A stretch of 12,643 bases of DNA from a virus (Duplodnaviria > Heunggongvirae > Uroviricota > Caudoviricetes): IMG/VR virus record IMGVR_UViG_2778261064_000023; one strand, written 5' to 3'. The notes under the pieces were generated by a model. The model did not search any database. It was not told where the DNA came from and saw nothing but the letters and a program-made list of their open reading frames with translations. The translations under genes and the position numbers were made by a program. Of this stretch, positions 10,289-11,256 are shown in pieces. Numbering within the stretch: the stretch's first letter is position 1; each line of letters opens with the position of its first letter.

Positions 10289-10677
10289 AAAAGTCTCCGC
10301 CCCTGTCCGGCAGTGTAAGAGGTGTTTTTTAGGGAGACCCTTTTCAGCCCATAAAACTGGAAAAATCACGGTTTTTTTAGTCTGCTGGTGGAGTGAGTTT
10401 TTTTAACGATGCCAGTAATGGCGCGGGTTGGGCGTGGTTTTGTCTGATAGGTTTTATCTATCAACTCTGCGCACACCTTCCCAAAAAAAAGTTTTCGATC
10501 CTGCGGCGATGCGAAGAAGGGTTGGTAGGCGGTCCCTGACATCCAGGGCCACAGGGATTTGATCTGCCCCTCCCGTTGATGATAACCGTTATCAATTACT
10601 CCACCAGCCGGCAGGACGGTAACAATACATCGGGCTACCCGTTCCGGTACTGGTTAATCCTGGCTTTCGCAATCAGC

Positions 10678-10715
10678 GTGACGTGATGGTGACATGCCGT
10701 GACACATCGTGACGC
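10678..10715. repeat. Four tandem GTGAC-containing 10-bp units (helically phased); possible protein-binding array
   Basis: GTGACGTGATG GTGACATGCC GTGACACATC GTGACGC read from sequence. Confidence 0.3.
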
Positions 10716-10750
10716 TACCAACAGCACAGGGGAGAACGGCAGAACGCGGG

Positions 10751-10775
10751 TAAAAAAATCCCCGTGATTACGGGG
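10751..10775 (-). terminator. Rho-independent terminator on the minus strand (stem CCCCGT/ACGGGG, loop, then a U-run)
   Basis: Plus strand TAAAAAAATCCCCGTGATTACGGGG; minus strand gives a hairpin followed by a T-rich run; implies a leftward transcript from the ORF-poor region 10776-11190. Confidence 0.5.
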
Positions 10776-11178
10776 CAGAAGGATAATAACCATCAGGAAA
10801 TGTTAGCTACCACAAAGCAAATAACCATGAACAACGATTAAGAGTACGGAGAATAACCGCTCGTTCATGCCGGATAATGCCACCAGGCCAGGAGAATGGC
10901 AATGCACGGACCATAACGCATCGCCACCAGCCTTGTGGGTTATCACGCAGCGGTACCGGGAGTCTGGTATCGTGATGCGGCATGATTCAGTGATAAGCAT
11001 CACCGCTTCCGCTCACATTTGACACTGGCAACTCCATCTGGCAGGTGAAAATCAGATTTATTTATATATTTCAATTGATTGCGAACTGGTCTAATGACAG
11101 GGGAGAAAAAAGATTGTACAGGTGAAAACAGAAATAACTTTTAATTATCAATATATTACTACACATGCTGCCGCCGCC

Positions 11179-11256
11179 ATGAAAATGCAAAAACCAGCCT
11201 TTTTCCGCGCGTCCGTCGCCCCGCGGTAAGGGTACCCATCCAGGAGGACCCGCGAT
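11179..11256 (-). other. cos-like site 4 (minus orientation); inverted partner of site 1
   Basis: Minus strand reads CGCGGGTCCTCCTGG ... CCTTACCGCGGGGCGACGGACGCGCGGAAAAAGGCTGGTTTTTGCATTTTCAT, near-identical to site 1 over about 55 bp. Confidence 0.5.

What the first reader, a model, noticed from the sequence alone, without database searches (positions are those of the whole stretch)
10300..11196. ORF-poor 0.9-kb stretch with a minus-strand terminator and phased GTGAC repeats: candidate non-coding RNA locus or decayed gene
Between cos sites 3 and 4 there is no convincing ORF on either strand (only one dubious 66-aa frame), yet there is a clean minus-strand rho-independent terminator (10751-10775), a helically phased array of four GTGAC units (10678-10715) and several tiny ORFs. 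The terminator implies a leftward transcript, possibly a small RNA. By position this corresponds to where a TerS-like gene lies between cos sites 1 and 2 on the other arm, so it may also be a degraded copy.
Basis: seen in the sequence. Interest (0 to 1): 0.5.

Follow-up and report, generated by a model that had tools for sequence, protein, structure and literature searches.

The report
Multi-cos packaging leader with candidate sRNA
This gene-poor stretch belongs to a phage-parasitic E. coli island: it lines up DNA-packaging (cos) sites copied from three different phage lineages, which may let the island hitch a ride with several helper phages, and between them sits a very conserved small transcription unit that is probably a new small RNA.

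Summary
Region 10300-11196 has no ORF conserved across alleles. It has a minus-strand intrinsic terminator (10751-10775) and four phased GTGAC units (10678-10713; 0 of 200 shuffles match).

It is neither one RNA locus nor one decayed gene. It is a mosaic that reads on the minus strand:
- A phage-cdtI-type cos leader plus a 16-codon stub of a DUF1441 terS (11209-10987).
- A self-contained unit made of a conserved extended -10 promoter, a ~118-nt three-hairpin RNA (10868-10751) and the terminator. The first 64 nt are nearly invariant in 18 alleles whose flanks differ by 10-19%.
- The GTGAC array.
- An apparently complete HK97/phi467-type cos (10597-10447) with a vestige of a P27-type terS start.

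The region abuts a phage-21-type cos and an intact Nu1-type terS.

The host element is a PICI/P4-like satellite at tRNA-Pro. The whole module is found in both orientations in related islands.

Best reading: a packaging leader for three helper types, carrying a candidate sRNA. No transcript has been shown, and no RNA target or GTGAC-binding protein is known. I rate it a new variant of a known kind, of moderate interest.

The parts
10068..10295 (-). cos3: a complete phage-21-type cos. cosQ is about 10288-10273. The predicted 12-nt cohesive end GGGCGGCAGACG is the minus strand of 10256-10245. cosB has R3/I1/R2/R1-like elements down to the terS start. It lies just outside the finding and forms its left border.
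   Evidence: 75-77% DNA identity to the phage 21 cos and Nu1 start. Alignment with lambda, 21 and cdtI cos. Phage 21 subsite annotation.
9483..10067 (-). Island-encoded full-length Nu1-type small terminase (194 aa), served by cos3. Context only, outside the finding.
   Evidence: Pfam Phage_Nu1 8e-68, profile positions 1-162 of 164. Best solved structure is lambda TerS 6hn7_B, 1.5e-38; no Rpp chain is returned.
10300..10446 (-). Spacer between the HK97-type cos and cos3. Its upstream end (about 10446-10400) is a vestige of the 5' end of a P27-family terS with the start codon lost.
   Evidence: Weak collinear DNA similarity to the first ~50 nt of phi467 terS. No significant tblastn hit. Conserved in 18 alleles, pi 0.086.
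10447..10597 (-). HK97/phi467-type cos region, equivalent to the whole HNH-terS intergenic region of HNH-dependent cos phages. By alignment to the HK97 genome ends, the cleavage point is near 10522/10521 and the T-tract is 10490-10483.
   Evidence: 75-79% identity to the HNH-terS intergenic region of phi467 and relatives, E 2e-24. Shared blocks with the HK97 end junction. Homologous sequence next to HNH genes in 1046 of 5426 E. coli genomes. The HK97 TerS site lies at +15 to +29 and includes an A/T tract (PMC11331095).
10678..10713 (.). Array of four GTGAC units with 10-11 bp phasing: a candidate protein-binding array that accompanies the HK97-type cos in satellites.
   Evidence: 0 of 200 shuffles. 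Motif positions vary at 2/20 columns and spacers at 10/20 across 18 alleles, Fisher p 0.014. A 4-5-unit array also lies ~45 nt from an HK97-type cos in two satellites with unrelated flanking sequence, in the opposite orientation.
10751..10775 (-). Intrinsic terminator: stem 10775-10760, then a U-run.
   Evidence: Stem-loop invariant in 18 alleles, pi 0.034 against 0.16-0.19 on either side.
10751..10868 (-). Candidate small RNA of about 118 nt: a 5' hairpin (nt 1-42), a second hairpin, an A/U-rich linker, and the terminator hairpin with its U-tail. It also contains a 21-codon ORF (MNERLFSVLLIVVHGYLLCGS, 10868-10803).
   Evidence: MFE -30 kcal/mol, z -2.5, 0 of 200 shuffles fold as well. Nt 1-64 vary at 4/64 columns against 62/177 in the flanks, Fisher p 2.7e-6. 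The two substitutions in hairpin 1 keep pairing (A-U to G-U, G-U to A-U). No Rfam match.
10874..10902 (-). Predicted sigma-70 promoter with an extended -10: -35 TTGCCA 10902-10897, TG 10882-10881, -10 CATTAT 10879-10874. The predicted start is at 10868, a purine in every allele.
   Evidence: In 18 alleles the -10 and TG are invariant, the -35 changes in one allele, and 7 of 17 spacer positions vary.
10903..10986 (-). Conserved block upstream of the promoter, with ATCACG/CGTGAT-type repeats. Four alleles carry a 28-bp deletion here. It may be a regulatory region.
   Evidence: pi 0.10.
10987..11037 (-). Stub of a DUF1441-family (cdtI-type) small-terminase gene: ATG at 11037, 16 codons (MELPVSNVSGSGDAYH), then a stop.
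   Evidence: 12/16 residues identical to the cdtI gp01 N-terminus. DNA 91% identical to cdtI positions 13-234; the cdtI gene starts at 185. In about 540 E. coli genomes this segment matches the start of annotated DUF1441 genes.
11038..11255 (-). cos4: a cdtI/Tritos-type cos. cosQ is about 11254-11243. The predicted cohesive end GGGCGACGGACG is the minus strand of 11221-11210. The cosB-side leader carries two TTTTCACCTG repeats. The finding's right border (11196) cuts through it.
   Evidence: 94% inverted repeat with cos1 over the cosQ-cosN core only. The leader cassette is replaced by a different cos allele in IGC-type islands while both flanks stay conserved.

Best explanation
The 0.9-kb stretch is the non-coding packaging leader of a PICI/P4-like phage satellite integrated at tRNA-Pro (yejM-yejO) in E. 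coli. In this island the leader lies inverted, on the minus strand.

Read on that strand, it lines up three cos sites, all pointing toward the island's own Nu1-type terS:
(a) a cdtI/Tritos-type cos (cos4) that kept its phage leader and the first 16 codons of the phage's DUF1441 terS;
(b) an HK97/phi467-type cos that kept a vestige of the P27-type terS start and is preceded by a phased GTGAC array;
(c) a phage-21-type cos (cos3), immediately followed by the intact terS.

Inferred mechanism: each cassette was captured from a phage genome by recombination at the cos/terS junction. Together they let terminases of three unrelated helper lineages cut and package the satellite concatemer. This step has not been shown.

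Between (a) and (b) sits an autonomous unit of promoter, ~118-nt structured RNA and terminator. Purifying selection on it acts at the nucleotide level. I read it as a satellite-encoded small RNA. Its partner may be Hfq or the island's own ProQ/FinO-family protein. Expression, partner and target are all inferred, not shown.
For: Mosaic identity:
- cdtI left end: 91% DNA identity to positions 13-234, where the terS gene starts at 185; the 16-codon stub matches 12/16 residues.
- The phi467-type HNH-terS intergenic region matches at 75-79% along its whole length. The HK97 genome ends align to the same blocks.
- This cos type lies next to HNH genes in 1046 of 5426 E. coli genomes.
- cos3 and cos4 align to lambda, 21 and cdtI cosQ-cosN-cosB.

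The module is a unit:
- 18 distinct alleles from 28 E. coli genomes plus IMG/VR and metagenome contigs keep the same order.
- In the simplest islands the order is PerC, cos, core, GTGAC, HK97-type cos, 21-type cos, terS, all co-directional.
- The cos4 cassette is swapped for another cos allele between conserved flanks.

RNA unit:
- Promoter and terminator predicted.
- Promoter hexamers and TG are conserved while the spacer varies.
- Nt 1-64 have pi 0.016 against 0.10-0.19 in the flanks, p 2.7e-6.
- Three-hairpin fold, z -2.5.
- Four alleles carry both a GTG start and a lost stop (a fifth has GTG only), yet keep the rest of the 64 nt unchanged.
- No ORF is conserved and none has a family match.
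- The island encodes a ProQ/FinO-family protein.

Precedent: EcCICFT073 carries two functional cos sites, and why it has two is an open question (PMC6739421, PMC6092414).
Against: - No transcript data were available, so the promoter is a prediction.
- There are no compensatory base-pair changes (0 of 27 pairs) because the RNA is almost invariant. The structure is therefore unproven.
- No target complementarity exceeds shuffled controls in the window or in the helper-phage segments held.
- A covariance model finds no second copy in 24 other related loci.
- The element is confined to about 0.5% of complete E. coli genomes and is absent from GTDB species representatives and from plasmids.
- Function of the HK97-type and cdtI-type cos sites in this island is inferred from homology and conservation only.
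- Some related islands lack the core or the GTGAC array.
- Most substitutions inside the 21-codon ORF are also compatible with coding.
Confidence: 0.6

Rival explanations
1. The region is a decayed second copy of the TerS-like gene at 8268-8777. It would be a pseudogene mirror of the left arm.
For: cos1 and cos4 are 94% inverted repeats. A 16-codon DUF1441-type start follows cos4.
Against: - The stub matches phage cdtI, not the island's own DUF1441 N-terminus.
- Similarity between the two arms ends about 45 nt past cosN.
- tblastn with both DUF1441 proteins finds nothing else in 10300-10987.
- The rest of the region matches an HK97-type cos or nothing at all.
- The central block is under stronger constraint than its flanks, which is unlike pseudogene decay.
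Confidence: 0.07
2. The conserved core encodes a leaderless 21-aa hydrophobic peptide (MNERLFSVLLIVVHGYLLCGS), for example a toxin-like or membrane-active small protein. The RNA would be its mRNA.
For: - The predicted transcription start coincides with the A of the ATG.
- The peptide has a charged N-terminus followed by a 16-residue hydrophobic run.
- Five of the six kinds of substitution are coding-compatible: ATG to GTG, GAG to GAA (synonymous), Leu to Phe, Cys to Tyr, and TAA to TGA.
Against: - There is no Shine-Dalgarno sequence.
- The start codon is buried in a 14-bp hairpin.
- Five alleles have GTG, which is poor for leaderless translation. Four of these also lose the stop codon, yet keep the nucleotide sequence.
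- Only one synonymous change occurs in 63 nt while flanks diverge 10-19%, which points to nucleotide-level constraint.
- No family match in NCBIfam, PHROGs or Pfam.
Confidence: 0.15
3. The promoter, short RNA and terminator form a cis-acting switch like a lambdoid late promoter pR' with its terminator tR'. Transcription would stop at 10751 unless a helper antiterminator (Q-like) or a self-acting RNA lets polymerase read on through the cos sites into the island's terS.
For: - The architecture matches pR'-tR' units: a strong promoter, a short terminated transcript, and packaging genes downstream (phage 21 and lambda annotation and sequence).
- In the window and in the simplest islands the unit is co-directional with terS, about 0.7-0.8 kb upstream.
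Against: - No sequence similarity to the pR' regions of lambda, 21, cdtI or phi467, or to any phage record.
- The Q21 binding element motifs are absent.
- The unit is equally conserved in alleles where terS is inverted relative to it (A19, A36 types) or deleted (STEC313 type).
Confidence: 0.13
4. The stretch is inert recombination debris left by repeated exchanges between satellites and prophages at cos sites, with no function beyond cos3.
For: - It contains truncated gene stubs, cassette swaps, deletions and a 74-bp insertion.
- Several related islands lack parts of it.
Against: - Sharp local conservation: the 64-nt core, the terminator, the promoter hexamers, GTGAC motifs versus their spacers, and discrete cos blocks shared with phages.
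- The GTGAC array recurs next to an HK97-type cos in unrelated sequence contexts.
Confidence: 0.05

Closest known systems
cos sites of Gram-negative PICIs (EcCICFT073 cos1/cos2; Fillol-Salom 2018, 2019; Murialdo & Feiss 2022)
   Same: A satellite without its own capsid genes carries lambda-like cosQ-cosN sites next to a TerS-like gene. More than one cos site occurs per island. The cosB differs from the helper's, and the reason for the extra cos is unexplained.
   Different: - Here there are five cos-like sites of three lineages: lambda/21 type, cdtI DUF1441 type and HK97 HNH-dependent type.
- Three are in tandem and two are inverted.
- The island carries a full-length Nu1 TerS and a DUF1441 TerS. 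The Nu1-type protein matches lambda TerS, not an Rpp chain, and the DUF1441 protein matches no solved structure.
- The central block is absent from other E. coli genomes, being present in only 28 of 5426.
HK97-family cos (HNH-dependent, 10-nt 3' overhang; TerS site at +15 to +29)
   Same: The conserved blocks are collinear: a G-run with GATCAAATC, then GACCGCC at the cut, then a downstream CGA plus T-tract. The position matches the HNH-terS intergenic region of phi467-like prophages.
   Different: No HNH gene and no P27 terS are adjacent; only a vestige of the terS start remains. A GTGAC array occupies the side where the phage has its HNH gene. Cleavage has not been shown.
Hfq/ProQ-type bacterial sRNAs and phage or satellite regulatory RNAs (the P4/P1 C4-type RNA and isrK, both present elsewhere in this island)
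   Same: Own promoter, about 100-120 nt, stem-loops, an A/U-rich linker, and a G+C-rich terminator with a U-tail. The island already uses RNA regulators at 2732-2917.
   Different: No similarity to any Rfam family. The target and chaperone are unknown, and expression is untested.
Lambdoid late promoter/terminator unit (pR'-tR', 6S RNA)
   Same: A short terminated transcript from a promoter placed upstream of packaging functions.
   Different: No sequence similarity and no recognisable Q-binding element. The unit is retained when terS is inverted or absent.

Membership tests
Lambda-type cos site (cos3, cos4) | cosQ (GGGTCCTT[T]CC) about 30 nt upstream of a cosN with near two-fold symmetry around a 12-nt cohesive end | tested here: met
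   All four sites align to lambda and cdtI cosQ and cosN.
Lambda-type cos site (cos3, cos4) | cosB with TerS-binding R elements (and an IHF site) between cosN and the terS start | tested here: met
   cos3 matches the annotated phage 21 R3, I1, R2 and R1 positions. The cos4 leader is 91% identical to the cdtI leader, but the R sites of cdtI-type phages are not defined experimentally.
Lambda-type cos site (cos3, cos4) | Cleavage by helper terminase and packaging of the DNA that carries the site | not testable with these tools
   Needs transduction or in vitro cleavage assays.
HK97-type cos | Sequence homology to the HNH-terS intergenic region that contains the genome ends | tested here: met
   75-79% identity over the whole 151-nt intergenic region of phi467-type phages, E 2e-24. 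The same blocks occur at the HK97 end junction.
HK97-type cos | TerS recognition element: an A/T tract and a specific G about 15-30 nt downstream of the cut | tested here: inconclusive
   A T-tract preceded by CGA is present and invariant, but it lies about 4-8 nt farther from the aligned cut than in HK97 (PMC11331095). phi467 shares this spacing.
HK97-type cos | Adjacent HNH endonuclease and P27-family terS genes | tested here: not met
   No HNH or P27 TerS similarity in the window. Both would have to come from the helper.
DUF1441-family small terminase gene (decayed copy) | Protein-level similarity along the gene | tested here: not met
   Only residues 1-16 match. A stop follows at 10989-10987.
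Known RNA families (Rfam 15) | Covariance-model score at or near the gathering threshold | tested here: not met
   No hit in 10280-11220 better than E 5.7. The whole-window scan finds only isrK, C4 and its targets, all elsewhere.
Independent sRNA gene (generic) | Own promoter, an intrinsic terminator, and conservation that does not follow codon structure | tested here: met
   GTG-start and stop-loss alleles keep the sequence.
Independent sRNA gene (generic) | Detected transcript of defined length | not testable with these tools
   No expression data are accessible.
Independent sRNA gene (generic) | Structure supported by compensatory changes | tested here: inconclusive
   0 of 27 pairs have double changes. 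Two single changes keep pairing. There is too little variation to decide.
Type I toxin / small membrane protein | Conserved ORF with a translation start signal and family similarity | tested here: not met
   No Shine-Dalgarno sequence. The stop is lost in 4 alleles and the start is GTG in 5. No family hit.
Lambdoid pR'-tR' late control unit | Q-binding element or pause element homologous to a known phage pR' | tested here: not met
   No similarity to the lambda, 21, cdtI or phi467 late regions, or to any phage record.
PICI of the EcCICFT073/Rpp type | An Rpp protein: a short TerS-like DNA-binding domain that lacks the TerL-binding C-terminus | tested here: not met
   The 194-aa protein covers the full Phage_Nu1 profile and matches lambda TerS, not the Rpp chain. 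The DUF1441 protein has no solved relative.

The most novel reading that the evidence does not exclude
The module is a tri-specific 'landing pad'. It would let one satellite be packaged by three mechanistically different terminase systems: Nu1/gpA lambda-type, DUF1441-TerS cdtI-type, and HNH-dependent HK97-type. It has two satellite-specific additions.

First, a new sRNA, possibly working with the island's own ProQ/FinO protein, would act on helper or host gene expression.

Second, a phased GTGAC array would recruit a factor to the HK97-type cos in place of the missing HNH/terS context.

In addition, the inverted cos pairs would act as switch points that flip the terS cassette and the whole module between orientations.
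Probability: 0.25. Interest if true: 0.75.

Novelty: new variant of a known kind. Interest (0 to 1): 0.55.

Why it matters
Why some PICIs carry more than one cos site was left as an explicit open question by the group that described them (PMC6739421).

This island family suggests an answer that can be tested directly. The sites are not duplicates. They are cassettes taken from different helper lineages, including an HNH-dependent HK97-type site that, as far as I could find, has not been described in a lambda-type cos PICI.

If they work, this would widen the predicted helper range of such satellites and therefore the spread of what they carry. These islands occur in STEC and ETEC strains and encode PerC-family regulators.

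The embedded RNA unit would be a new satellite-encoded regulator. The GTGAC array would be a new accessory element of HK97-type packaging sites.

Tried and rejected
- Rfam scans of the whole window and of the sub-region with lax thresholds: nothing in the region.
- Pfam, NCBIfam and PHROGs on every small ORF and on the 21-aa peptide: nothing.
- tblastn of the 66-aa frame against phages: only E ~0.8-0.9.
- tblastn of phi467 HNH, phi467 TerS, cdtI DUF1441, and the window's own DUF1441 and Nu1 against the window: only the 16-codon stub.
- Exact-pattern scans of GTDB species representatives (two patterns): zero hits.
- Plasmid collection: zero hits.
- Covariance model R1 against 24 other loci, including satellites with the same terS and lambdoid prophages: no second copy.
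- Duplex search for sRNA targets in the window and in the cdtI, phi467, HK97, lambda and 21 segments held: the best non-self energies are no better than shuffled queries.
- Late-promoter mimicry: no similarity to the pR' regions of lambda, 21, cdtI or phi467, or to any phage record.
- GTGAC array as the replication origin: rejected, because the iteron-like repeats are GGGACAAC units just downstream of the primase gene.
- Terminase cut-and-religate as the inversion mechanism between cos2 and cos3: not supported as it stands, because their predicted 12-nt ends differ (GGTACGGGTACG vs GGGCGGCAGACG). The mechanism is left open.
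Full report
**What the window is**

The window is identical to IMG/VR contig UViG_2802429220_000023. Region 10300-11196 is 100% identical to four complete E. coli genomes, among them STEC316. In STEC316 the element sits between tRNA-Pro/yejM and yejO.

The island carries these genes:
- an integrase;
- a C4-type antisense RNA and isrK (2732-2917; Rfam);
- a DUF927 primase-helicase, an SSB, a ProQ/FinO-family protein and a PerC-family regulator;
- a DUF1441 protein (8268-8777; Pfam 4.7e-35; PHROG 141 small terminase);
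- on the minus strand, a full-length Nu1-type small terminase (9483-10067; Pfam 8e-68; closest solved structure is lambda TerS).

There are no capsid or tail genes. This is a PICI/P4-like satellite that uses cos packaging.

**Check of the observation**

- The region holds only ORFs of 66 aa or less. None is intact in all alleles. None has a family match.
- The minus-strand terminator is real: stem 10775-10760 plus a U-run. It is invariant in 18 alleles.
- The GTGAC units start at 10678, 10689, 10699 and 10709. Such an array never appears in 200 shuffles and occurs nowhere else in the window.
All four align to lambda and cdtI cosQ-cosN.

**Anatomy, read on the minus strand**

This is the sense direction of the module.

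1. 11255-11038 is a cdtI/Tritos-type cos. It is 91% identical to phage cdtI positions 13-234, and the cdtI DUF1441 terS starts at position 185.

2. 11037-10987 is the first 16 codons of that terS (12/16 residues identical), followed by a stop. About 540 E. coli genomes match only this segment, at the start of intact DUF1441 genes. The island's own DUF1441 gene on the other arm has a different N-terminus and a different leader. The two arms share only cosQ-cosN and about 45 nt beyond it.

3. 10986-10751 is a block with no phage, plasmid or protein homolog.

4. 10713-10678 is the GTGAC array.

5. 10597-10447 matches, along its whole length, the HNH-terS intergenic region of phi467-like phages (75-79% identity, E 2e-24).
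   - Identity is concentrated in discrete blocks.
   - The same blocks occur at the junction of the HK97 genome ends: a G-run with GATCAAATC, GACCGCC at the cut, and CGA plus a T-tract downstream.
   - In HK97 the small terminase binds +15 to +29, which includes the A/T tract (PMC11331095).
   - This cos type lies next to HNH genes in 1046 of 5426 E. coli genomes. STEC316 has two further copies.

6. 10446 to about 10400 keeps a weak vestige of the P27-type terS start, not significant at protein level.

7. 10295-10068, just outside the finding, is a complete phage-21-type cos with R3/I1/R2/R1-like elements. It leads into the Nu1 terS.

So three cos sites of three phage lineages point the same way. 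Two of them still carry the first codons of the terS gene they were cut away from.

**The module in related islands**

I collected 18 distinct alleles from E. coli genomes, IMG/VR and metagenomes.
- In the simplest islands (C5 type) the order after PerC and its terminator is cos, core, GTGAC, HK97-type cos, 21-type cos, terS. All are co-directional with the backbone.
- In the window the whole module is inverted, and a cos1-DUF1441 module lies between it and PerC.
- The terS cassette, flanked by the inverted cos2/cos3 pair, occurs in both orientations. So does the larger module. All four combinations exist, one island has two inverted HK97-type cos copies, and some islands have lost terS.
- The cos4 cassette is replaced by another cos allele between conserved flanks.

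The region is therefore a recombination-prone but maintained packaging module, not debris.

**The core unit**

- A sigma-70 promoter with an extended -10 (TTGCCA, 17 nt, TGgCATTAT; 10902-10874) lies about 118 nt upstream of the end of the terminator.
- Across alleles the -10 and TG never change, the -35 changes once, and 7 of 17 spacer positions vary.
- The predicted start (10868) is a purine in every allele.
- The RNA folds into a 14-bp 5' hairpin, a second hairpin, an A/U-rich linker and the terminator (-30 kcal/mol, z -2.5).
- Nucleotides 1-64 vary at 4 of 64 columns (pi 0.016), against 62 of 177 in the flanking segments (pi 0.10-0.19). Fisher p is 2.7e-6.
- The two substitutions in hairpin 1 keep pairing. 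No double compensatory change exists, so the fold is unproven.

A 21-codon hydrophobic ORF starts at the first nucleotide. Arguments against it being the functional product:
- It has no Shine-Dalgarno sequence.
- Its start is buried in the hairpin.
- Five alleles have GTG, and four of them also lose the stop, yet the nucleotide sequence stays the same.

I therefore favour an sRNA, with the peptide and a cis-acting terminator switch as rivals. I found nothing on the following points:
- No Rfam family matches.
- No target stands out above shuffled controls.
- There is no similarity to lambdoid late promoters.
- There is no second copy in other loci.

**The GTGAC array**

- Motif positions vary at 2 of 20 columns and spacers at 10 of 20 (p 0.014).
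- Two satellites with unrelated flanking sequence (L036 and E. coli O39:NM F8704-2) have 4-5 GTGAC units at 10-bp spacing about 45 nt from an HK97-type cos. There the array is in the opposite orientation relative to the cos.
- It is not the replication origin, whose repeats are GGGACAAC units next to the primase gene.

I read it as an orientation-independent protein-binding array that accompanies HK97-type cos sites in satellites. The protein that binds it is unknown.

**Comparison with what is known**

EcCICFT073-type PICIs have two lambda-like cos sites and an Rpp protein that retargets the helper TerS. The reason for the second cos was left open.

This island differs in three ways:
- It carries full TerS genes rather than an Rpp.
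- It carries cos sites of three lineages, one of them HNH-dependent.
- It carries an embedded RNA unit.

I class it as a new variant of a known kind.

**Confidence**

| Claim | Confidence |
|---|---|
| Mosaic and cos identities | about 0.85 |
| The core is expressed as a functional RNA | about 0.5 |
| All three cos types work in this island | unknown |

Noticed in passing
window 8066-8118 / 11179-11231 and 9262-9341 / 10207-10286; loci L006, L007, L009, L012, L015, L019: Nested inverted cos pairs flank the terS cassette and the whole multi-cos module. Related islands show all four orientation combinations, with breakpoints inside the cos sites. L019 has two inverted HK97-type cos copies around the terS cassette. 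This looks like recurrent inversion at cos sites, with the mechanism (homologous recombination or terminase-linked) unresolved.
   Followed up: partly
window 2719-2917 (+): Rfam finds isrK (80 bits), a C4 antisense RNA (75 bits) and its a1/b1 target. This is a P1/P4-type RNA immunity module upstream of the primase operon.
   Followed up: no
window 8745-8773 and 9121-9149: The last 29 nt of the DUF1441 gene are duplicated 376 nt downstream (97%). This is probably a recombination scar between packaging modules.
   Followed up: no
window 9240-9480 (cos2): cos2 has lambda-like R-site repeats with its own sequence (GATCCGTTCTTCTTC, AAAGAAAGGATCTGACAG, a palindrome at 9399-9455). Its cosN is divergent (GGTACGGGTACG). 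No terS follows it in the window. In A19-type islands this cosN-cosB side sits next to the region instead of cos3.
   Followed up: partly
window 6175-6225 and 6354-6376: GGGACAAC-containing tandem repeats in an A+T-rich stretch just downstream of the DUF927 primase-helicase gene. This is the likely replication origin.
   Followed up: no
L005 11527-11600 (STEC313) and the L010, L011, L012, L015, L018, L019, L022 alleles: A 74-bp insertion lies between the terminator and the GTGAC array in eight alleles. Four of these also lack the fourth GTGAC unit and the following ~58 nt.
   Followed up: no
L036 4621-4665; L065 2655-2695: Other satellites have 4-5 GTGAC units at 10-bp spacing right after a 93-104-aa gene (PHROG 1561 type) and ~45 nt from an HK97-type cos. 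One of them (E. coli O39:NM F8704-2) carries capsid and head-decoration genes.
   Followed up: partly
window 7650-7937 and 12342-12643: There are two PerC-family regulator genes in one island, one before and one after the packaging region. The same islands occur in STEC and ETEC strains.
   Followed up: no
window 1-1239 versus L001 3274-4515: Using the coordinate offset from the matched region (10300-11196), the STEC316 integrase gene does not line up with the window's integrase ORF at 1-1239. The integrase end of the window may therefore differ from STEC316, even though the two are identical across the region studied.
   Followed up: no
L009, L010 (E. coli C5, OkiPb01677): In these strains the module sits next to PAAR / S-type pyocin and immunity genes, and in OkiPb01677 next to a reverse transcriptase gene. 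There the island appears truncated.
   Followed up: no
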